Of a DNA stretch of 46,011 nt, positions 36,772 through 46,011 are shown one piece after another. This DNA comes from an uncultured Methanosarcinales archaeon. Its GTDB lineage: Archaea; Nanobdellota; Nanobdellia; Woesearchaeales; JAGVZT01. The DNA lies in contig CAYQPU010000010.1 of assembly GCA_964419615.1 (NCBI GenBank), positions 1 through 46,011 on the forward strand, in the 5' to 3' direction. The number at the start of each line of letters is the position of its first letter. The first letter of the stretch is position 1. A program made the translations under genes and the position numbers. The notes under the pieces were generated by a model. It did no database searches, was not told the origin of the DNA, and saw only the letters and a list, made by a program, of their open reading frames with translations.

Positions 36772-39156
36772 TTAATTACTTTTAAGTTTGATCTTATCTT
36801 TTCCAAAAGCGATAGTCTTAGCTTTGACAACAGCCTTAAGATCATCAATAACATGCTCAATCTTATCTTTGAATTCAGAGTTAATCTCAAGTTCTATCTC
36901 TTTTGCCAAACTAACTTTCTTATCTGTTTTGTACTTTCTTACTGCATCAATATAATCAATTGCTGTATTCCCAAACTCTTCACTTTTCTCGTCAACAAGA
37001 TTCTCATCAAAGTTTGGCCAGGACAAATTATGCACACTTTTTTCTCCTTCTCTTTGTCTAAAAAACATCTGATAAATTTCCTCAGTAATAAACGGCATAA
37101 AAGGGGCAGTGAGCTTTAATATGGTCAGTAAAGAATAATACAATGTATATTGGGCAGAACACTTGGCATCTTTTCCTCGTATGTCCGGATTATACAATCT
37201 ATCTTTAATAATCTCAAGATAATAATCACAAAAAACATTCCAAAAGAAATTCTCTGCTTCAGCCTTTACCTTAGAATACTCATACTTATCAAATGACTCA
37301 GTACAATTCTTAACAAGATTTTGAATCTTGGACAACATCCATTTATCAAAAACTTCCAGTTCAGGTTTGGAACCATCATACTCTTCCAGATGCATAATTG
37401 CGAACTTTGATGCATTCCATAATTTGTTAACCATCTTTTTGGCAGTAACCAAATCTTTTTCTTGGAATGGAAGGTCCTCTCCAAGCTTTGAACCAGCAGC
37501 CCAAAATCTTAAACAATCTGCACTATACTTTTCAATCATAATTCTTGGATCAATAACATTACCTTTTGACTTTGACATCTTTTTTCCCTTTGGATCAAGA
37601 GCCCAGCCAGAAACAACACAATCCTTCCATGGATTAACATTGCTATGCAATTGTGACTTAACAACAGTATTAAACAGCCAAAAAGTAATAATGTCATGTG
37701 CTTGTGGCCTCATACTCATTGGATAAAGTTTATCATACATCTCTGGCACCAGTGAAGCTGCAATCTGAGGAGTTAATGACGACGTTGCCCAAGTGTTAAT
37801 AATATCCGTCTCTGGAATAATTTCAGCACAACTACATTTTGGACATTTATCAACTGGTGCTTTATCAACTATAGGATCAACAGGTAAATCAGCTTCATTA
37901 GCAATAATAATCTCATCACAATCTTTACAATACCAAACTGGAAATGGAATACCAAAATAAATCTGCCTTGAAATACACCAATCCCACTGCAGACCATTAA
38001 CCCAATTCTCATAACGATTCCGCATATGATCAGGATACCAATTCAACTCTTTACCCCACTTCATCATATCTTCCTTTAAATCAAGATACTTGATAAACCA
38101 CTGCTTTGAATGAATAAACTCAACCTCAGTTCCACAACGTTCATGAACATTAACAGAGTGAGTAATTGGTTTTTGATTTCTAAGTAAACCTTGAGTTTTC
38201 ATATCCTCAATAATCTTATTTCTTGCATCCTTCATATCCATTCCCTGATAACTTTTTGCAATTTCTGTCATCTTACCATCTTTGGCAATTGCCTCTCTAA
38301 TTGGTAGATTGTATGCTTTTTGCCATTCACAATCAGTTGAATCACCAAAAGTACAACACATAACAATACCCGTTCCTTTCTCTGGATCAGCTCTTTCATC
38401 CTCCATAATTGGAACTTCTAAATCAAACAAAGGAACCTTTGCTTTTTTACCAAGCAAATGCTTGTACCTAGGATCTTTTGGATTGTAAAAAACAGCAACA
38501 CATGCTGGTAAAAGCTCTGGTCTGGTAGTTGCAATAAGTAATTCCTCACCATCAACAGAAAACACAATATCATTAAAATGAGAAGCCTTCTCAGCATCCT
38601 CACACTCAACTTGTGAAATAGCTGTCTGACATTTTGGACAAAACATAGCAGGAGCTTTTGTTCTATATTCTCTACCTGATTTATACAAATCAATAAATGA
38701 CTTTTGTGAAATCTTTCTTGGTAAATCCTTAATTGTCTCATACATTAAATTGAAATCACAACTCATACCAATCTTTTTCCAATCAGAAACAAAATCATCA
38801 ATAATCTCTTCATCTAAAACCTTCATGCAAAACTGTCTAAACTTTTCTCTACCCATATCAACAGCACGAACATTCTTAGTTCTTTCAATTAATAGCTGAG
38901 TAGGTAAACCATTCCCATCTGCTCCAAAAGGATAAAAAACAGAAAAACCTGCCATTTTTTTATAACGAGCAATAAAGTCTTGTTGTGAATATGAAAAAGC
39001 ATGACCCAGATGCATTCTGCCTGAAACAGTAGGCGGAGGGGTATCTATGCTGTAGATTGGTTTATTAGAATTCTTGTCAAAACTAAATATACCTTCGTCT
39101 TGCCAAAACCTCTGCCACTTAGGCTCACTTTCTTTTGAATCATAATGTTTTTTCAT
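36772..39156 (-). CDS. valS: Valyl-tRNA synthetase
   Basis: DTPPPTVSGRMHLGH (HIGH), DWCISRQ, KMSKS. SD GGAGGT at 39169-39164 supports ATG 39156. Confidence 0.97.
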   Translation of the reverse strand: MKKHYDSKESEPKWQRFWQDEGIFSFDKNSNKPIYSIDTPPPTVSGRMHLGHAFSYSQQDFIARYKKMAGFSVFYPFGADGNGLPTQLLIERTKNVRAVDMGREKFRQFCMKVLDEEIIDDFVSDWKKIGMSCDFNLMYETIKDLPRKISQKSFIDLYKSGREYRTKAPAMFCPKCQTAISQVECEDAEKASHFNDIVFSVDGEELLIATTRPELLPACVAVFYNPKDPRYKHLLGKKAKVPLFDLEVPIMEDERADPEKGTGIVMCCTFGDSTDCEWQKAYNLPIREAIAKDGKMTEIAKSYQGMDMKDARNKIIEDMKTQGLLRNQKPITHSVNVHERCGTEVEFIHSKQWFIKYLDLKEDMMKWGKELNWYPDHMRNRYENWVNGLQWDWCISRQIYFGIPFPVWYCKDCDEIIIANEADLPVDPIVDKAPVDKCPKCSCAEIIPETDIINTWATSSLTPQIAASLVPEMYDKLYPMSMRPQAHDIITFWLFNTVVKSQLHSNVNPWKDCVVSGWALDPKGKKMSKSKGNVIDPRIMIEKYSADCLRFWAAGSKLGEDLPFQEKDLVTAKKMVNKLWNASKFAIMHLEEYDGSKPELEVFDKWMLSKIQNLVKNCTESFDKYEYSKVKAEAENFFWNVFCDYYLEIIKDRLYNPDIRGKDAKCSAQYTLYYSLLTILKLTAPFMPFITEEIYQMFFRQREGEKSVHNLSWPNFDENLVDEKSEEFGNTAIDYIDAVRKYKTDKKVSLAKEIELEINSEFKDKIEHVIDDLKAVVKAKTIAFGKDKIKLKSN

Positions 39157-39217
39157 CTTAATAACCTCCATTAATAGCTGATATATAAAATTAACTAGAG
39201 AAAACACAATGAGGGGC

Positions 39218-39277: not shown

Positions 39278-39377
39278 ATTTATGTAAAATTCTTTCATCT
39301 AACAAAATTGATAAATTATACATAAATATATAATTCTAATTAGATTCTCTTTTGCTAAACAATTGACAAGTAAGACT

Positions 39378-39827
39378 ATGAATGCTCAAGATAAATTAAG
39401 GGAATTAAACATTTACTTAGATTCAATAGAAGCTGTTTTTCAAATATTTGAATCTTCTACAAATTACGCTAAGTTTGAAGATAACTGGAGAAAAAGTACA
39501 GTATATAATGCAACTGGACTGGATCAATTCTTAACTGCGTTTTTTTACAGGATTCAAGAAAAAGATGAAAGAATTGTAGTGGATGGTGTGAAAACTCTTG
39601 GGCAATACATGGATGAGCAAATAATAAAAGAATACTTAACAACAGATGGAGATCCTACCATGATCTTCTTCTCAGGTTACCCTGAAATTTCAATTGATAA
39701 AAGAAACAAGTTTTTTGATGAAGCTCGGCAATTTTCTTTAGATACTGTACGGGAGTATTTAGGTATTAAATCAACTAAACATCAATCCCATAATTATCAA
39801 ATAATAAATCCTCAACAGATTCTTTAA
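39378..39827 (+). CDS. Hypothetical protein
   Basis: About 150-aa ORF; its 3' end overlaps the convergent PolB-like gene by 53 nt. Confidence 0.6.
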   Translation: MNAQDKLRELNIYLDSIEAVFQIFESSTNYAKFEDNWRKSTVYNATGLDQFLTAFFYRIQEKDERIVVDGVKTLGQYMDEQIIKEYLTTDGDPTMIFFSGYPEISIDKRNKFFDEARQFSLDTVREYLGIKSTKHQSHNYQIINPQQIL

Positions 39828-42726
39828 TCCCCAAAGCCTTGCATAATTTCATCAAATTCCTGTTCTTTTCAAAAGCCCATTCAAGATAATATGGAATATG
39901 AGGAACTTGTGTCCAGGAATCTGGATCACATGCATCAACAACATTAACCTCAAGACTATGACCATCCATGCTACTCACAATCATTGTCCTACTCTGACCT
40001 CCCTCAAGTCCCATAAAATCTAAGATCTTAAATCTTCTTGTAGATCTAGATTTAATTGAATAATTTGGAGCATCTTTTCCAGGATTAAGTGTCATAAAAA
40101 ACTCTTCAGTAGGGAGTTTATCTAAATTTAGAATTTGGTCATGCAAGTACCCTTCAGCCCCTTCAGATCCTTCTTTGATAGAAGTGATAACAAGATCATG
40201 AATCCATTTATCATAAAAATTTGGATCGAATCCTTTTAGCATTGAATCAGGGGTATGCCTTTTTTTTGGTGTCTGCATTTTAAATCCAACAGAAGCAAGA
40301 TGACTTAATTCATCTTCTCTTAATTGATATGCAACACTTCCTCTAGCCATAGAAACAACATCACCTGCGCCAACAAAAATATAACCTAATTCTTCCAGCT
40401 CCTCAACCAGTCTAGGATCATTATCTACAAACAAATAATCTCCAGTGTAATTAATAATCTCAGCATTCTCTAAAGGCAAAACCAAATCATCCATAGATTT
40501 CCTAAATTCACTTAACAAAGTATTAGCATTATTCCCATATCCTCCTTGCGTACCATACCTGTAATAAAGTGCACCATCAGCTGGTGAGTCAGTTTCCATG
40601 GATGTTTTTGCATCAAGTAGATAATAGACAGCCAAATTGTCAAGAATCCTCTGAATAAAGATCCTCTCCATCTTATCATCGGACTCATTTAAAGTAGAGT
40701 ATAATTCGTTAAGTATTGGATGCTTAATTATTGTTGAAACAGATGTCTCTGTGAAAAAAGGAGTATAAAACAATGCAACATCCCTAAACAATCCTCTCTG
40801 ACATTTGAGTTTCTCCTCTGATACTCTTTCATAAGCCATTGAGAGTGCTCTTGTCTTACTCCTATCAAGATTAAATTTGTCATAATGATTTGAACTCACC
40901 CAGTTAGGAATTACCCCCTGTTCTTGGGAAAATTTCCTTTCCCAAACCAATGAAGCAACCTTTCTGGGAGTAGAGTGAAACAAAGTGTCAAATTGTATTC
41001 CAGTTATGTCTTCAACTTTCTCCATTATCGGAACTAACGCATTTATAATCTTTAGTTGATTTATTGTATCACCTGCACCATATTCAACTGCATCTCTTGC
41101 TCTATTAGCATCAGCCTCACCATCCTCAACAGCTAATTCCACTTGGTTGTAACCAGGGATAGATTTTTCAAATTCAATGCCTGCACCAGAAAAAAAATCT
41201 ATTGCAGCAGACAATGATTCAAGCGTGCCATCTAGTGTCAGCAGAGCCAAATGAAATCTTGCAGCATATAATGTATCTGCTCTAGGAATAGTACCATCAA
41301 ACTGAATTGGCCAAGCCTGTGACCTGAACTTAATGGGTGAATTATCATTATTCAAAAGACACATTTTTTGATCCTGTGTAAACAATTTAACAAACAAATT
41401 CTTTTCTCGAAGTTCCTGAGGCAATTCAGCAATAGCATTCGGATCTCTATTCGGATTCATTGATCTTGATGCATCATAACTCCAAGTGTTATGTCCTCCT
41501 GTTCTACTCAACTGAAACATCTGGTGAAACAAAGAAAAAGTTCTAACAACAAGATTTGCGTCAGGTTGCTGAATATACAACATTCTCTCACCAGATTCTA
41601 GTTCAACCCAATCAGAACCAATATCCAAATATCCAATTGCAACATCTGTCAAAGGCCATTCTATATCTGGTGGAAATTCAAACAAAGGACTCTCAAATTC
41701 TTCAATACCTTTATTTGCTGACAAAGCAATAAGCCACACCCTTGGATCAATGGGGATATTCTCATCTGGTGTTCTAATACTCCCTCTATAGCAAGTTGTT
41801 TCAATATCCCATGAACCATTGTTGTGAGCAGTATCATCCTTTCCATCCAAAAACTGAATCTGTGAAATATCATATCCTCTTAGTAAAATATCAAAAGAAT
41901 AATCCCTGAAATTAGGTCCAAATTCTCCTCCTAACTCAGTTATCAGAGCAAAAACATCACTATCAATCTCAATTAATTCCTGCATCAATGCTCCAACTTC
42001 ATGAGGTAAATCCCAAATATGGTCTTCAAAAGCTGACCTCAATTCTCCAACTCGATTTGATAAAGCCCGCTTTTTATCTGCTCGGATGCACCATAATTCT
42101 TCAATGTCAGGCGGCATTTCTTTTCTATTACCAACTAAAAAATCAATATACTCTTCAGAATCAGGACAAGCAATCCTCAGATCATCCTCTGCCCAAATTA
42201 TCTCTTGTTCAGAATCAAGCAAATAATAATCTCCAATAAGTCTCATTATCTTATGTGCTCTATCTTGAATTAGCATTGCTTGTACAATTCTATCATCAAT
42301 CTCAACTGGTTTTGTCCAATCAAAAAACAATCTTAACCATTCAGTGTATCCAATTGGTTTAGTACTAAAAAAATTATTAGGCACTCCCTCAGCTAAAACA
42401 TCCACTAGACTATTTGAGTTACCATAAGTTTCAATATGTACATGTCGTTTATTTTGGGAATAATGGAAATGTCTAATATCATATTTTTGTCCAATAATGC
42501 TCTTATCTAAATCCCTTTCTAATGTATCTTCAATAATCTGTGCAGTTATTTTATCAGAAGCAAGATTTGGATCATTCCGGCTCTCAATTGGAATAGGAGC
42601 ATGTGTTTGGTAAACTTTTGGCATTGGTACAGTGACCGGCCCCAAATTTTGATCCTGTTTTCTAAAATAAAGCTTAGCCCAAGGCATGTCTTCAAATCTT
42701 CGGGTAGAAACCTTCAAAACTCTCAT
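39775..42726 (-). CDS. Family B DNA polymerase-like protein with intact 3'-5' exonuclease motifs and inactivated polymerase motifs
   Basis: ExoI WDIETT, ExoII GHNTWSYD, ADTL, ExoIII YGAGD. Motif A region GLFRDVALFYTPFFT (no DFxSLYP), motif C IINYTGDYLFV (no YxDTDS). Thumb-like LNPGKDAPNY and PYYLE. Confidence 0.75.
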   Translation of the reverse strand: MRVLKVSTRRFEDMPWAKLYFRKQDQNLGPVTVPMPKVYQTHAPIPIESRNDPNLASDKITAQIIEDTLERDLDKSIIGQKYDIRHFHYSQNKRHVHIETYGNSNSLVDVLAEGVPNNFFSTKPIGYTEWLRLFFDWTKPVEIDDRIVQAMLIQDRAHKIMRLIGDYYLLDSEQEIIWAEDDLRIACPDSEEYIDFLVGNRKEMPPDIEELWCIRADKKRALSNRVGELRSAFEDHIWDLPHEVGALMQELIEIDSDVFALITELGGEFGPNFRDYSFDILLRGYDISQIQFLDGKDDTAHNNGSWDIETTCYRGSIRTPDENIPIDPRVWLIALSANKGIEEFESPLFEFPPDIEWPLTDVAIGYLDIGSDWVELESGERMLYIQQPDANLVVRTFSLFHQMFQLSRTGGHNTWSYDASRSMNPNRDPNAIAELPQELREKNLFVKLFTQDQKMCLLNNDNSPIKFRSQAWPIQFDGTIPRADTLYAARFHLALLTLDGTLESLSAAIDFFSGAGIEFEKSIPGYNQVELAVEDGEADANRARDAVEYGAGDTINQLKIINALVPIMEKVEDITGIQFDTLFHSTPRKVASLVWERKFSQEQGVIPNWVSSNHYDKFNLDRSKTRALSMAYERVSEEKLKCQRGLFRDVALFYTPFFTETSVSTIIKHPILNELYSTLNESDDKMERIFIQRILDNLAVYYLLDAKTSMETDSPADGALYYRYGTQGGYGNNANTLLSEFRKSMDDLVLPLENAEIINYTGDYLFVDNDPRLVEELEELGYIFVGAGDVVSMARGSVAYQLREDELSHLASVGFKMQTPKKRHTPDSMLKGFDPNFYDKWIHDLVITSIKEGSEGAEGYLHDQILNLDKLPTEEFFMTLNPGKDAPNYSIKSRSTRRFKILDFMGLEGGQSRTMIVSSMDGHSLEVNVVDACDPDSWTQVPHIPYYLEWAFEKNRNLMKLCKALGIKESVEDLLFDNYGIDV

Positions 42727-42750
42727 TATAAAGTAGTAAAAACAACAAAC

Positions 42751-42760
42751 TATTTATAAT
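42751..42760. promoter_or_regulatory. Bidirectional TATA box between the polB-like gene and the 360-aa/Cas4-like operon
   Basis: TATTTATAAT reads as a TATA on both strands, 28 nt from ATG 42781 and 33 nt from ATG 42726, in a 54-nt gap. Confidence 0.5.
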
Positions 42761-42780
42761 CTTTTTCATTCTAAGAGCAT

Positions 42781-43863
42781 ATGCACCAAGGAAGAGTACT
42801 TACTGATCCAATGGGAAATGGTCCTGGAAGAATGTTAGGATTGGCTAGCGCTTATGTTACAATCTCAGAAGACAAGACTTTTGAGAAAAATCCAGAACTA
42901 TTACCAGTACATAAAGAAGCAAAAGCTACTTTAGAAAACAATTTTGTAATGGGCCCCTTGGAGCAATACATCTTATACCATAATGCAATTTCATACCTAG
43001 ATGATTATCTTCGAGATTTATTTAGAGATTCAATTGTAATATTTGTTCCTAGTTTAACTGCCACATCTTATGAAGAAAAAAGAATTATTGGATCAGATGA
43101 ATTTAAAACAGAACTAATGCCTTATTCATCAAATAGAATTGGTGCAGATATAACAAGTCTTTTTAGTGTAATTGGCGCAAAACTAAGAGATATGTGTACT
43201 CAACTTCAAATTGATTATGAGCGTGATTTGTCATCAGGGGATTTTAGACCCGAGGAAGCTTCTAAGAATCTTTTATTTATTCCAGTAGCACCCTTCTTAT
43301 CAGTTGTATCTTTTGATGGACTAACAATAAGAAACATATTTGGTGAAAACATTGAGCTCAATGATGATACATATAACATAAGAGAACAGGTAAATGCTGT
43401 TATGGATCAAAAAGGAAAAATAACAATGGGTTCAACTGTTCTGGAAGGCATAACAGAAGCACCTTTTTATTGGTACCTTCCAAGTTTCATAGACAAGGAT
43501 GCTGCAGCAAGGTTTTATAGGAAACATGATATGACTTTTTCAGAATACAAATCGCAAGTTTCATTATACACAAGATATAATAGATTATTAATATCTGAAA
43601 TGTATGCACACCTAATAAGTTTGCTACCAGAAGAAACAGAAGTTGTTCCCTTCCTATGTAAAACTTCTCCATTAACAGACATCCTTCATCGAGCAGCCAG
43701 AAAAAATAATAGATTGCTGTATGACTTAAATATAATGGATAATGTGAAGGAACCAATAATGGGTGAAGCTTCACTTGGAGCAATTAATATTCTTCGCCAA
43801 TACATAATCCACCAAAGAGTGGGTCAAAGAAAAACTCTAAGAAGAGACACTTTTAGAAAATGA
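42781..43863 (+). CDS. Hypothetical protein, translationally coupled to the nuclease
   Basis: 360-aa ORF; ATGA overlap with the next gene. Confidence 0.7.
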   Translation: MHQGRVLTDPMGNGPGRMLGLASAYVTISEDKTFEKNPELLPVHKEAKATLENNFVMGPLEQYILYHNAISYLDDYLRDLFRDSIVIFVPSLTATSYEEKRIIGSDEFKTELMPYSSNRIGADITSLFSVIGAKLRDMCTQLQIDYERDLSSGDFRPEEASKNLLFIPVAPFLSVVSFDGLTIRNIFGENIELNDDTYNIREQVNAVMDQKGKITMGSTVLEGITEAPFYWYLPSFIDKDAAARFYRKHDMTFSEYKSQVSLYTRYNRLLISEMYAHLISLLPEETEVVPFLCKTSPLTDILHRAARKNNRLLYDLNIMDNVKEPIMGEASLGAINILRQYIIHQRVGQRKTLRRDTFRK

Positions 43864-45194
43864 GCAAAATTAAATCCTGTATGAAGTATCTAAGCATTGG
43901 ATGTTCTCTACCTCAGGGACCCCAAACATGCTATAGTGATGACTTTCCATGTATGGCAGACTATCTATCATATTTACCAAAGTTTTACAGAGAGACTTTT
44001 ATTGAGGATGCACGGATTGAAGGATATCGGATGATCGGTGCAGAAGATCTAATTTGGCAGCTTAACCACTATAATGCAATTATAAAAAAATCAGATCACC
44101 AAGAAGGCACTCTTAAACAATTAACTCAGAATAATCCCATCATACCTTGGGCTATCGCTGTTGCCCAAGATTTTCAGACCAAAGTGGATTCTTATATTCA
44201 TTATCATGGAAGACCTAGCCAATTTAGTTCATCAAAATGTCCTTTGTCAGTCCTAATGAGTAATCTAGATCAGGATAAGGTTCAGCAAACTACTGATCTT
44301 GAGATTTTGGAAGTTAGAGAAACTATAGCTGGCAGCATTAGGCATGATATCGCATCAGCACCCACATTAAGATACCTACAAACACCTTTAATGCATCAGC
44401 ATCCTGCATTCTGGGAATACAAAACATTAAGACAAGATTACACTGAAAAGAGAGTGGCATACATTTTATCACTCGATGAGATCACAGATAATGGTTTATC
44501 TGAAGATTTAGATAACCTATTTAATTTTATGAAAGGTGGCAAACTTAAAGGTCTGGAAGTTTGGGACATGACAACTTTTCAATATGAAAGAAGTCACTAC
44601 AAAGAATGGTTTGAATCTTTAGACATGAATTGGAGGGAATTTGGAATAAAGGAGTACGTATTCAAAGGAACTGCAGACTTAATTATGACTCTAGCAAATA
44701 CAGGTGAGATAATAATTGGTGACTGGAAAAGAGCAAGATTCCAAAAAAACTCATTTGACTTGCAAACTTCTCTTTATGCTTTGGCAATAGAACAAATGGC
44801 TTCAATGTTCTCGCCTCAATATCTATTAGTTCTTGGAATTAATCGGTTTGGTAATAAAACTGATGACTATAATCTACCATCATTACACATAAGACTGCTT
44901 GAAAGAGATGATATTCTTACCAAGACAGCTAAATTAAAAGCAGTGTTTCTTCATACAGTAATGGCTACACTCATAGATAATCCTTCTCACTTTTTGAAAT
45001 TAAGAGAACAGCAAAGAGTAATAAGGCCAAGCAAGTACAAAGATCACTCTGAAATGATGCATTGTGACGATCTTTTTACAGGAAGCGCATGTATCAATCA
45101 TAGAAACAATATGTGTCAAGCAGTCTCTGAATTTATCCAAGAAGGAGGAGATTTGAATGATTTATTAATTGAAGGTTTTCAGCCGTGGACCTAA
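43860..45194 (+). CDS. Cas4/RecB-like PD-(D/E)XK nuclease, possible Fe-S cluster
   Basis: FKGTADL...IIIGDWK...DLQTSLYALA; SKCP upstream and C-x8-C-x7-C at the C-terminus. Confidence 0.8.
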   Translation: MSKIKSCMKYLSIGCSLPQGPQTCYSDDFPCMADYLSYLPKFYRETFIEDARIEGYRMIGAEDLIWQLNHYNAIIKKSDHQEGTLKQLTQNNPIIPWAIAVAQDFQTKVDSYIHYHGRPSQFSSSKCPLSVLMSNLDQDKVQQTTDLEILEVRETIAGSIRHDIASAPTLRYLQTPLMHQHPAFWEYKTLRQDYTEKRVAYILSLDEITDNGLSEDLDNLFNFMKGGKLKGLEVWDMTTFQYERSHYKEWFESLDMNWREFGIKEYVFKGTADLIMTLANTGEIIIGDWKRARFQKNSFDLQTSLYALAIEQMASMFSPQYLLVLGINRFGNKTDDYNLPSLHIRLLERDDILTKTAKLKAVFLHTVMATLIDNPSHFLKLREQQRVIRPSKYKDHSEMMHCDDLFTGSACINHRNNMCQAVSEFIQEGGDLNDLLIEGFQPWT

Positions 45195-46011
45195 CCAAAA
45201 TGACCTTGGTTTGTTATATCCTCTAAATGCCTGAATGCTTTTTCTTCACCACCCCTTCTTTCTACATTAAAAATATAATAAGCCAAAGCAGCTTTTGTGA
45301 CTGGAGTCAAATTGTGACCATTATGGGCAAGTGTCCTTTCAATCATTCCAGGATCCTTACTAATAGCTTCAACAGAATGAGTAAAGTAATGATTACCTCT
45401 TTTTTTAAAAGATTCCTCTAGTTCAACAAACATATTATCTAATTTCAAATAACCAATAAGATGGTGTCTCTTATGCAAAGACCCCTCAAATTTATCAGTT
45501 GTCACATAGGCCAATATTCTGAAATCATCTGCTGCAAAATGTTTATCAACTTTGAGCTTTAATTCCTTTTTTAAACCAGAATAAAATGAAGTATGGGGAT
45601 CTTCATTTGGACACACACAAAGCAAATGCCTCCAACCTTGACTATAAACAGAACCAATCCCTCTTTGAGAAAGTACAATTGCATCCATAGTTTCAATTAA
45701 AACATCCAATTCCAGACCTGCTGATGGAATCCCTTGCCCATCAAAAGCTTGAGCATAATCTGGACTTTTGCATGCAACAACACTGGAATAATCAATTAAC
45801 TGAATTGGGAGTTCTAATCTTCCATCTTGAAACTGTGGATCAGAAGAGGGAGCAACAGTGGGCCCATCCCATAAAATTGATTTGTCTTTTTTGGAGTTTA
45901 GAGCGTGGCTTTGAGTTTCACGATCTCTATTAATGAAAAATTTTTTTCCAGTGGCTGTCTCTAACCTCCCTTTTGTATCTTGAATAACTTTCAACCAATA
46001 TTCTTTTCTAA
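45191..46011 (-). CDS. 5'-partial hypothetical protein, possibly a degenerate Nudix fold
   Basis: The frame stays open to the window edge (RKEYWLKVIQ). VLIETMDAIVLSQRG...YSQGWRH...GLKKELKL loosely follows the Nudix pattern but lacks a canonical Nudix box. Confidence 0.5.
   Translation of the reverse strand, partial: RKEYWLKVIQDTKGRLETATGKKFFINRDRETQSHALNSKKDKSILWDGPTVAPSSDPQFQDGRLELPIQLIDYSSVVACKSPDYAQAFDGQGIPSAGLELDVLIETMDAIVLSQRGIGSVYSQGWRHLLCVCPNEDPHTSFYSGLKKELKLKVDKHFAADDFRILAYVTTDKFEGSLHKRHHLIGYLKLDNMFVELEESFKKRGNHYFTHSVEAISKDPGMIERTLAHNGHNLTPVTKAALAYYIFNVERRGGEEKAFRHLEDITNQGHFG

What the first reader, a model, noticed from the sequence alone, without database searches (positions are those of the whole stretch)
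39378..46011. Candidate undescribed nuclease system: dead PolB, unknown protein and Cas4-like nuclease on one bidirectional promoter
Seen: the polB-like gene and a coupled two-gene operon (360-aa unknown + 444-aa PD-(D/E)XK nuclease with QxxxY and a Cas4-like 1+3 cysteine pattern) diverge from a 54-nt gap with one TATA usable on both strands. Convergent orphan genes overlap both ends, one of them possibly a degenerate Nudix. No cas1, CRISPR array, integrase or terminal repeats are visible. Established: PolB and Cas4-like genes co-occur in casposons and archaeal viruses, but with an active polymerase. Inference: a co-regulated DNA end-processing, repair or anti-MGE module built from domesticated mobile-element parts.
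Basis: inference. Interest (0 to 1): 0.75.

Follow-up and report, generated by a model that had tools for sequence, protein, structure and literature searches.

The report
Exonuclease-only PolB with sensor-nuclease partner
A small group of DPANN archaea carries a conserved, apparently undescribed gene module in which a family B DNA polymerase that has lost its polymerase site but kept its proofreading exonuclease is always paired, across a shared promoter, with a Cas4-like iron-sulfur nuclease and a protein of base-binding fold. The module most likely cuts and degrades DNA for defence or repair.

Summary
The window is a whole contig of a Woesearchaeota (DPANN) genome assembled from a metagenome.

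- **PolB-like gene (39775-42726, minus strand).** It has no Pfam hit, but it folds with high confidence (pLDDT 94) as a complete family B polymerase. The DEDDy exonuclease residues are kept in 48-52 of 52 family representatives. The motif A aspartate is never present, and motifs B, C and KxY are lost.
- **Partner operon.** It is transcribed in the opposite direction across a 54-nt gap. It encodes a 360-aa protein whose fold is closest to the ArcS core domain (DUF5591), which is UDG-like, and a 444-aa RecB/Cas4-type nuclease with all catalytic motifs and a 1+3 cysteine pattern.
- **Conservation.** The same arrangement recurs in every related locus whose flank could be read: 9 loci with the split trio and 4 more published loci with a partial partner gene. 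In two distant loci the two partner proteins are fused into one chain.
- **Promoter.** The 50-55-nt gap with a central palindromic TATA box is also conserved.
- **Context.** The module is rare (16 of 401 genomes of the phylum). It is an insertion/deletion difference between housekeeping genes, and it shows no integrase, cas1 or flanking repeats.

The function was not tested. Restriction-like DNA degradation is my leading reading and lesion repair is a close rival. An origin from a mobile element is not supported. The scan had noted the dead PolB before, on this same DNA only.

The parts
39775..42726 (-). 983-aa family B polymerase homologue: the 3'-5' exonuclease site is intact and the polymerase site is lost. 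It carries an extra three-helix insertion at about residues 145-265.
   Evidence: AF2 pLDDT 93.9, pTM 0.92. Foldseek finds full-length PolB matches at E 2e-16. VIA gives Z 21.8 to KOD Pol over 638 residues. The family profile hits Pfu PolB at E 1.2e-38. Exo I/II/III residues are kept in 48-52 of 52 representatives, and the motif A Asp position is never D. No Pfam or NCBIfam hit.
42727..42780 (.). 54-nt divergent promoter gap. It has a central palindromic TATA box (42753-42759) and a conserved AGTAGTAAAA element (42732-42741; reads TTTTACTACT in the direction of the PolB-like gene).
   Evidence: Sequence. A gap of the same length (50-55 nt) with a central TATA is seen in L004, L005, L010, L012, L013, L015 and L011. 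The ACTACT element is seen in most of these.
42781..43863 (+). 360-aa protein of no known family. Its fold is closest to the ArcS C1 / DUF5591 domain (UDG-like alpha/beta fold). I take it to be the DNA or base-binding 'sensor' half of the partner enzyme.
   Evidence: AF2 pLDDT 80.6, pTM 0.83. VIA-wide top hit is 2q07_A at Z 10.1, with the next hit at 5.0 and SMUG1/2, UdgX and vaccinia D4 at Z 4-4.7. ESM atlas finds DUF5591 clusters with TM 0.72 by target. No Pfam, PDB or PADLOC sequence hit. Homologues lie next to every PolB-like gene.
43860..45194 (+). 444-aa RecB/Cas4-type PD-(D/E)XK nuclease with a 1+3 cysteine (Fe-S type) pattern, an N-terminal four-Cys cluster and a conserved N-terminal domain. 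Its start overlaps the stop of the 360-aa gene.
   Evidence: Pfam PDDEXK_1 E 2.6e-5. PHROG exonuclease families at E 1e-3. PADLOC Cas4 only at E 0.038. The catalytic and Cys residues are invariant over 9 homologues. It is fused to the 360-aa family in L049 and L050.
45191..46011 (-). Nudix-like gene cut off by the contig end. It is conserved with the module only within the genus, so it is probably an accessory neighbour rather than a core part.
   Evidence: 41% identity to the 311-aa gene of G001 at the same position. Absent next to the module in G003 and the other loci. Atlas features point to Nudix clusters at 0.96. No Pfam hit.

Best explanation
This is a two-unit DNA-cutting module that only some DPANN archaea carry.

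Unit 1 is a family B polymerase homologue that keeps the whole PolB fold and the DEDDy proofreading site but has lost every polymerase catalytic motif. It would therefore act as a 3'-5' exonuclease that loads on DNA 3' ends or primer-template junctions.

Unit 2 is a two-part enzyme, made either as two translationally coupled proteins or, in distant relatives, as one fused chain. One part has an ArcS-C1/UDG-like fold, the kind of fold that holds a flipped-out base. The other part is an Fe-S RecB/Cas4-type nuclease.

Both units are transcribed from one palindromic TATA box as leaderless mRNAs, so they are made together.

Proposed action (inferred, not shown): the sensor-nuclease recognises an unusual base or DNA end and cuts, and the PolB-derived exonuclease then resects from the new 3' end. 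The target DNA would thus be degraded from both polarities without a helicase. Because the module is rare, patchy and an indel at a conserved locus, I favour a restriction-like role against foreign (possibly base-modified) DNA over a housekeeping role.
For: Shown here:
- Full PolB fold and profile homology to archaeal PolB.
- Exonuclease residues conserved in 48-52 of 52 representatives. The motif A Asp is replaced by Y/F/H/M/I/L in all of them, the second Asp of motif C is kept in only 13 of 52, and motifs B and KxY are lost.
- Every one of 25 related genomes also has a canonical PolB, so this gene is an extra.
- The nuclease motifs and cysteines are invariant.
- The trio is conserved in W, G001, G003 and L010-L015, each in a different gene context.
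- A partner gene sits next to the PolB-like gene in 4 more published genomes.
- Fusion of the two partner proteins in L049 and L050: hhalign 99.0% and 99.6%.
- Conserved promoter gap.
- Patchy spread: 16 of 401 genomes over at least 9 families.
- G002 has the same flanks but a different gene in place of the module.

From a paper: the DUF5591 core domain (ArcS2) acts on a modified base in DNA in phages (PMC10516641).

Inferred: the order of events, the target, and the defence role.
Against: - No activity, complex or phenotype was tested.
- The sensor protein shows neither the ArcS motif (PC-x3-KPY-x2-S-x2-H) nor UDG motifs, and has few invariant polar residues. It may only bind, or it may do something unrelated.
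- The neighbours are mostly housekeeping genes (valS, RFC-like, aaRS, S8e, Sec61-beta, NAC), not defence islands. One locus has an HhH-GPD glycosylase next door, which fits repair.
- No PADLOC system hit. That is expected for something new, but it gives no support either.
- PolB2 was once called dead and later proved active (PMC7544198).
Confidence: 0.4

Rival explanations
1. The same proteins act as a chromosomal DNA-repair or replication-fork module. The UDG/ArcS-fold protein finds a damaged or deaminated base. The Fe-S nuclease incises or trims the 5' side. The PolB-derived exonuclease removes the 3' side. Gap filling is left to the canonical PolB.
For: The module is embedded among housekeeping and replication genes: valS and an RFC-like AAA+ gene in G001, and ribosomal, Sec61-beta and NAC genes elsewhere. 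An HhH-GPD glycosylase lies next to it in L010. The fold resembles uracil-DNA glycosylases at Z 4-4.7. Established knowledge: Dna2 and AddB use the same Fe-S RecB-type nuclease domain in repair and replication. Small DPANN genomes lack many repair pathways.
Against: It is present in only about 4% of the phylum's high-quality genomes and in 3 of 8 genomes of its own family. It is replaced by another gene at the same site in G002. This pattern is unusual for a core repair function. No glycosylase motifs are visible.
Confidence: 0.33
2. The module is a leftover or domesticated replication module of a mobile element or virus (the casposon-, pipolin- or virus-like combination of PolB with a Cas4-like nuclease and a UDG-like protein).
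For: Established knowledge: PolB and Cas4-like genes co-occur in casposons and archaeal viruses, and pipolins pair a PolB with a UDG. The nuclease's nearest clusters by language-model features are viral PD-(D/E)XK proteins (a lead only). The distribution is patchy.
Against: There is no integrase, Cas1, tRNA or flanking repeat. No relative was found in the phage collection or in IMG/VR with these queries. The family profile matches Thermococcales cellular PolB best (E 1e-38), against 0.0035 for E. coli Pol II and 0.14 for RB69, and it does not match protein-primed PolBs. In every locus only the module itself is shared, not any other element genes.
Confidence: 0.1
3. The PolB-like protein is still a polymerase with a rearranged active site, as PolB2 turned out to be. 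In that case the module would be a specialised translesion or repair-synthesis machine.
For: There are precedents: PolB2 and primer-independent PolBs work with incomplete motif C (PMC7544198). The second Asp of motif C is kept in the window's protein (D763). E660 and D696 are conserved in the closer subfamily.
Against: The motif A Asp is missing in all 52 representatives. Motif B (K/N/Y) and KxY are gone. D763 is N, K or G in most members. No member reaches Pfam DNA_pol_B.
Confidence: 0.07

Closest known systems
Archaeal family B DNA polymerases of the B3 type (Pfu, KOD, Tgo PolB)
   Same: Whole five-domain fold (Z about 21.8, 638 aligned residues). Profile E 1.2e-38. Intact Exo I/II/III DEDDy site.
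   Different: Motifs A, B, C and KxY of the polymerase site are lost. About 120 aa of three long helices are inserted between the N-terminal and exonuclease domains. No canonical C-terminal PIP box was seen. It is always paired with two partner genes. It is encoded in addition to the genome's normal PolB.
PolB2 with inactivated RadA and arCOG07300 (predicted mutasome; PMC4104785, PMC11791011)
   Same: A diverged PolB paralogue that is conserved in an operon-like unit with dedicated partner proteins and has a patchy distribution.
   Different: PolB2 has a disrupted exonuclease and a working polymerase. Here it is the reverse. The partners are unrelated (nuclease plus ArcS/UDG-fold protein instead of RadA-like plus a small helical protein).
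Prokaryotic PolX proteins with a dead polymerase site and an active PHP 3'-5' exonuclease (cited in PMC12926913)
   Same: The same evolutionary move: a polymerase scaffold kept for its exonuclease.
   Different: A different polymerase family and a different exonuclease fold. No conserved sensor-nuclease partner is described there.
Cas4 / AddB / Dna2 Fe-S RecB-type nucleases
   Same: PD-(D/E)XK motifs E, D, DxK and QxxxY, the GxxRH motif, and one N-terminal plus three C-terminal cysteines.
   Different: No Pfam Cas_Cas4 hit. No cas1 or CRISPR in the genome. No helicase domain. Extra N-terminal domain and four-Cys cluster. Cys spacing is C-x8-C-x7-C, not C-x2-C-x5-C (the latter from my own knowledge).
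ArcS C1 domain / DUF5591 (PF17884; structure 2q07 AF0587; phage ArcS2 acting on DNA)
   Same: Best structural match of the 360-aa protein (Z 10.1, TM 0.72 by target).
   Different: No sequence-level match. The ArcS catalytic motif was not seen. DUF5591 was not found in 41 related genomes. Extra N-terminal helical region.
Modification-dependent (type IV) restriction enzymes that join a base-flipping domain to a PD-(D/E)XK nuclease, such as the MspJI and PvuRts1I classes (from my own knowledge)
   Same: The architecture of the fused form: a putative base-binding domain followed by a PD-(D/E)XK nuclease.
   Different: A different sensor fold (SRA-like there). No PolB-derived exonuclease partner. 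No activity is known here.

Membership tests
Family B DNA polymerase (homology and fold) | N-terminal, exonuclease, palm, fingers and thumb domains in PolB topology | tested here: met
   Foldseek E 2e-16 over the full length. VIA Z 21.8 to KOD Pol, model range 2-964. Profile against Pfu PolB gives E 1.2e-38.
Family B DNA polymerase (active proofreading) | Exo I (DxE), Exo II (Nx2-3[FY]D) and Exo III (Yx3D) motifs | tested here: met
   D307/E309, N413/D418 and Y549/D553 are kept in 48-52 of 52 representatives.
Family B DNA polymerase (active polymerase) | Motif A DxxSLYPS with the catalytic Asp | tested here: not met
   hhalign against 13 canonical PolBs aligns the Asp to Y654. That column is Y/F/H/M/I/L/N/R and never D in 52 sequences.
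Family B DNA polymerase (active polymerase) | Motif C DTD, motif B Kx3NSxYG, and KxY | tested here: not met
   DTD aligns to T761-G762-D763, and the second Asp is kept in only 13 of 52. The K/N/Y of motif B and the KKxY are not aligned to like residues. No member reaches Pfam PF00136.
Cas4 (CRISPR-associated) | RecB-type nuclease motifs plus four Cys (1+3) | tested here: met
   E196, D273, D288xK290, Q302xxxY306, C127, C402, C411 and C419.
Cas4 (CRISPR-associated) | Match to the Cas4 family model, and linkage to cas1 or a CRISPR array | tested here: not met
   Only PF12705 is hit, not PF01930. PADLOC Cas4 E 0.038. No Cas1 in a genome that is 99% complete.
ArcS C1 / DUF5591 | Sequence match to PF17884 and the motif PC-x3-KPY-x2-S-x2-H | tested here: not met
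   No Pfam hit. The motif was not seen in the 9-sequence alignment (motif taken from PMC10516641). The fold similarity is real.
Uracil-DNA glycosylase superfamily | UDG fold with the catalytic motifs A and B | tested here: inconclusive
   SMUG1/2, UdgX and vaccinia D4 appear only at Z 4.0-4.7. No UDG motifs were recognised by eye.
Casposon / provirus | Cas1 or integrase, terminal repeats, further element genes | tested here: not met
   Flanks hold housekeeping genes. No Cas1. No convincing repeats. No viral relatives.
Known anti-phage systems (PADLOC-DB 2.0) | A match of any component to a system model | tested here: not met
   There were no hits for the PolB-like or the 360-aa protein. The nuclease gave only a weak Cas4 hit.
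PolB2 mutasome-like operon | Exonuclease-disrupted PolB2 with RadA-like and arCOG07300 partners | tested here: not met
   The exonuclease is intact and the partners are different families. The description of PolB2 comes from PMC4104785.

The most novel reading that the evidence does not exclude
This is a previously undescribed archaeal DNA-surveillance system. A base-flipping sensor of ArcS/UDG fold, coupled or fused to an Fe-S RecB-type nuclease, marks and cuts DNA that carries an unusual base (for example the 7-deazaguanine or other hypermodified bases of viruses, or a template-strand lesion). A polymerase-dead PolB has been repurposed as the dedicated 3'-5' degrading engine. It would be the first PolB family kept for its exonuclease alone.
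Probability: 0.3. Interest if true: 0.85.

Novelty: new variant of a known kind. Interest (0 to 1): 0.7.

Why it matters
Family B polymerases are among the best-studied enzymes. The known 'inactivated' branches (PolB2, Pol alpha/zeta and the C-terminal half of Pol epsilon) lost the exonuclease, or lost both sites. A branch that keeps only the exonuclease and has a fixed sensor-nuclease partner would be a new way of reusing a replicase.

It would also add a candidate defence or repair pathway to DPANN archaea, whose small genomes mostly lack CRISPR and many repair systems. Two of the three proteins belong to no described family. Yet the fusion, the synteny and the shared promoter give a clear set of proteins to express together and test.

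Tried and rejected
- **Complex prediction.** Complex prediction on the 444-aa and 360-aa proteins, using the 9-row alignments, gave no verdict (score 0.00). This counts neither for nor against binding.
- **Sequence searches.**
  - Single-sequence Pfam, NCBIfam, PDB, PADLOC and PHROG searches gave nothing for the PolB-like and 360-aa proteins.
  - The A5 profile found nothing in the PDB.
  - Word-indexed searches found only the same-family homologues.
- **Searches that could not run.**
- **Viral relatives.** The viral-contig scan and tblastn against phages found no relatives.
- **Taxon names.** The listing of cluster members gave no taxon names for the distant members. Their lineage outside the scanned phylum is therefore unknown.
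- **DUF5591 profile comparison.** DUF5591 was not found in 41 related genomes, so no profile-profile test against it was possible.
- **Alternative polymerase motifs.** I first read the 'YTGDYLFVDND' stretch and 'LDNLAVYY' as possible motifs C and A. The hhalign and HMM alignments and the secondary structure place the true motif A strand at 645-654, and put D696 in a fingers helix. I rejected that first reading.
- **Recent duplication.** I considered a recent duplication of the host's own PolB and rejected it. The host-lineage PolBs score lower against the family profile (E 1e-24 to 1e-10) than Pfu PolB does (1e-38).


Full report
**What is there**

The window is the whole of contig C10 of a 1.48-Mb, 99%-complete genome. 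The closest homologue of the large protein is labelled Candidatus Woesearchaeota.

| Feature | Coordinates | Strand | Notes |
|---|---|---|---|
| valS | 36772-39207 | - | |
| 983-aa gene (PolB-like) | 39775-42726 | - | |
| Intergenic gap | 42727-42780 | | 54 nt |
| 360-aa gene | 42781-43863 | + | |
| 444-aa gene | 43860-45194 | + | overlaps the previous stop by 4 nt |
| ORF | 45191-46009 | - | runs off the contig end |

**The large protein is a PolB that has kept only its exonuclease**

It has no Pfam, NCBIfam, PDB, PADLOC or PHROG hit as a single sequence.

An exhaustive HMM search with three orthologues found only 62 cluster representatives among 1.84 billion proteins. This is a rare family.

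With 52 of them as the alignment, AlphaFold2 gave a model with pLDDT 93.9 and pTM 0.92. The model matches family B polymerases over its whole length. Foldseek gives E 2e-16. VIA gives Z 21.8 to KOD Pol over 638 residues and Z about 20.8 to the Pol epsilon core.

The family profile hits Pfu PolB at E 1.2e-38. Six of 52 members reach Pfam DNA_pol_B_exo1, and none reaches DNA_pol_B.

The motif columns across the 52 representatives read as follows:
- The exonuclease residues D307, E309, N413, D418, Y549 and D553 are present in 48-52 of 52.
- hhalign against 13 canonical PolBs of the same order aligns the motif A aspartate to Y654. That column is never Asp.
- DTD of motif C aligns to T761-G762-D763, and the second Asp is kept in only 13 of 52.
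- The K/N/Y of motif B and the KKxY motif have no counterparts.

All 25 related genomes tested, including this one, also have a canonical PolB. So this gene is an extra. It is also not a recent copy of the host enzyme, because host-lineage PolBs score E 1e-24 to 1e-10 against the family profile, while Pfu PolB scores 1e-38.

A three-helix insertion at about residues 145-265 has no counterpart in the standard fold description.

**The partner operon**

*The 444-aa protein* hits PDDEXK_1. Over nine homologues at 22-64% identity it keeps C127, the GxxRH histidine H162, E196, D273, D288xK290, Q302xxxY306, C411 and C419, with C402 in most. It is therefore a predicted active RecB/Cas4-type nuclease with an Fe-S-type cysteine set. 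It also has a four-Cys cluster and a conserved domain at its N-terminus. It is not a Cas4 by family model. The genome has no Cas1, and it carries a separate, more typical PDDEXK_1 gene on C4.

*The 360-aa protein* has no sequence relatives outside this module. Its model (pLDDT 80.6, pTM 0.83) has these structural matches:
- One outstanding match is 2q07 (AF0587), at Z 10.1 over 137 residues. The next hit scores 5.0.
- Several uracil-DNA glycosylases appear at Z 4-4.7.
- The ESM atlas search returns DUF5591 / archaeosine synthase clusters, with TM 0.72 by target over 190 residues.

DUF5591 is the catalytic core of ArcS. A phage version of it acts on a 7-deazaguanine base in DNA (PMC10516641). 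The ArcS motif is not visible in this family. I therefore claim only a shared fold, of a kind that holds a flipped-out base.

**The linkage is the main result**

- *Within the genome's own family.* The trio stands in the same order and orientation in G001 (52, 51 and 64% identity) and G003 (40, 42 and 43%).
- *Distant relatives.* Six relatives of the PolB-like protein with 21-30% identity were looked up on their contigs. Each has a 329-370-aa homologue of the 360-aa protein and a 351-438-aa PDDEXK nuclease, divergently transcribed from it. In each locus the surrounding genes are different.
- *A tenth locus.* A locus for which no DNA was available shows the same gene sizes.
- *Fusions.* In two still more distant loci, the divergent partner is a single 806-830-aa protein. 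Its N-terminal half matches the 360-aa family (hhalign 99.0%, E 3e-18). Its C-terminal half matches the nuclease family (99.6%, E 1e-23). Such a fusion is strong evidence that the two proteins work as one enzyme.
- *Phylum scan.* Every hit whose upstream flank was available shows a divergent homologue of the 360-aa protein. These are G104, G183, G063 and G329. The unpublished genome G350 shows the same, but no conclusion rests on it.

**The promoter**

In eight loci the gap between the divergent start codons is 50-55 nt, with a palindromic TATA element in the middle. In the window the element is at 42753-42759, which is 25 and 30 nt from the two ATGs. With the usual archaeal spacing of about 26 nt (established knowledge), both mRNAs would be leaderless. 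An ACTACT-containing element just before the PolB-like ATG is also conserved across loci whose proteins are only about 25% identical. It could be an initiator or an operator. Its role was not tested.

**Context**

The module occurs in 16 of 401 high-quality genomes of the phylum, spread over at least nine families. In its own family it occurs in 3 of 8 genomes.

G001 has the gene order RFC-like, [Nudix-like, nuclease, 360-aa, PolB-like], valS. G002 has the same flanks with a different 246-aa gene in between. The module is therefore an insertion/deletion difference at a conserved site.

No integrase, Cas1, tRNA or convincing flanking repeat was found. No relative was found in phage or IMG/VR collections with these queries.

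**Reading**

What is shown:
- a PolB-fold protein with a conserved exonuclease site and no polymerase site;
- a predicted active Fe-S RecB-type nuclease;
- a partner with an ArcS/UDG-like fold;
- obligate genetic linkage, including fusion;
- a shared promoter;
- a patchy distribution.

What is inferred is the mechanism. In my reading the sensor-nuclease recognises a base or an end and cuts, and the PolB-derived exonuclease resects from the 3' end.

| Reading | Confidence |
|---|---|
| Restriction-like role against foreign DNA | 0.40 |
| Lesion repair or fork processing | 0.33 |
| Mobile-element remnant | 0.10 |
| Still-active polymerase | 0.07 |

- The restriction-like role leads because of the distribution and the indel pattern.
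- Repair or fork processing is a close second because of the housekeeping neighbours and an adjacent HhH-GPD glycosylase in one locus.
- The still-active-polymerase reading takes the PolB2 precedent into account.

**Novelty**

The surveys of PolB diversity that I could read do not describe an exonuclease-only PolB or this association. These were PMC7544198, PMC4104785, PMC2527604 and PMC12926913. The Cas4 phylogenomics paper (PMC5704561) does not mention a polymerase link.

The nearest analogy is the subset of PolX proteins with a dead polymerase and an active PHP exonuclease (cited in PMC12926913). The library is not complete, so a description elsewhere cannot be excluded.

Noticed in passing
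window 42732-42741 (and L004, L005, L010, L013 just upstream of the PolB-like ATG): An ACTACT-containing element (TTTTACTACT in gene orientation) lies between the shared TATA box and the PolB-like start codon. It is conserved across loci whose proteins are only about 25-50% identical. It could be an initiator or an operator.
   Followed up: partly
window 39363-39827 (+): A 149-154-aa ORF fills the 567-nt space between valS and the PolB-like gene and overlaps the latter's 3' end by 53 nt. It has no counterpart in G001 (where the gap is 139 nt) or G003, and no paralogue in the genome. It has a weak PHROG hit (E 0.005). Whether it is a real gene is undecided.
   Followed up: partly
window 36772-39207; L004 13106-15508; L011 11202-14426; L012 15042-18182: A class I aminoacyl-tRNA synthetase (valS here and in G001; a gene with the DUF5915 domain, probably ileS, in two distant loci) lies downstream of the PolB-like gene on the same strand in four loci. 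In addition, a ribosomal S8e gene lies within 3 kb in three others (L010, L049, L050). This may be old synteny or chance.
   Followed up: no
L010 4909-5550: An HhH-GPD (Ogg-like) DNA glycosylase gene lies directly next to the module's nuclease gene in one distant locus.
   Followed up: no
G000:C4:30754-31488 (L051): The genome has a second, more typical PDDEXK_1 (solo Cas4-like) gene elsewhere (E 1e-29), although no Cas1 was found.
   Followed up: no
window 1-46011: ARAGORN finds no tRNA gene in the window.
   Followed up: no
L012 11659-19223: In one distant locus the module is followed by Fic, AAA_14/DUF4143 and PIN genes, a more defence- or toxin-like neighbourhood than in the other loci.
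   Followed up: no
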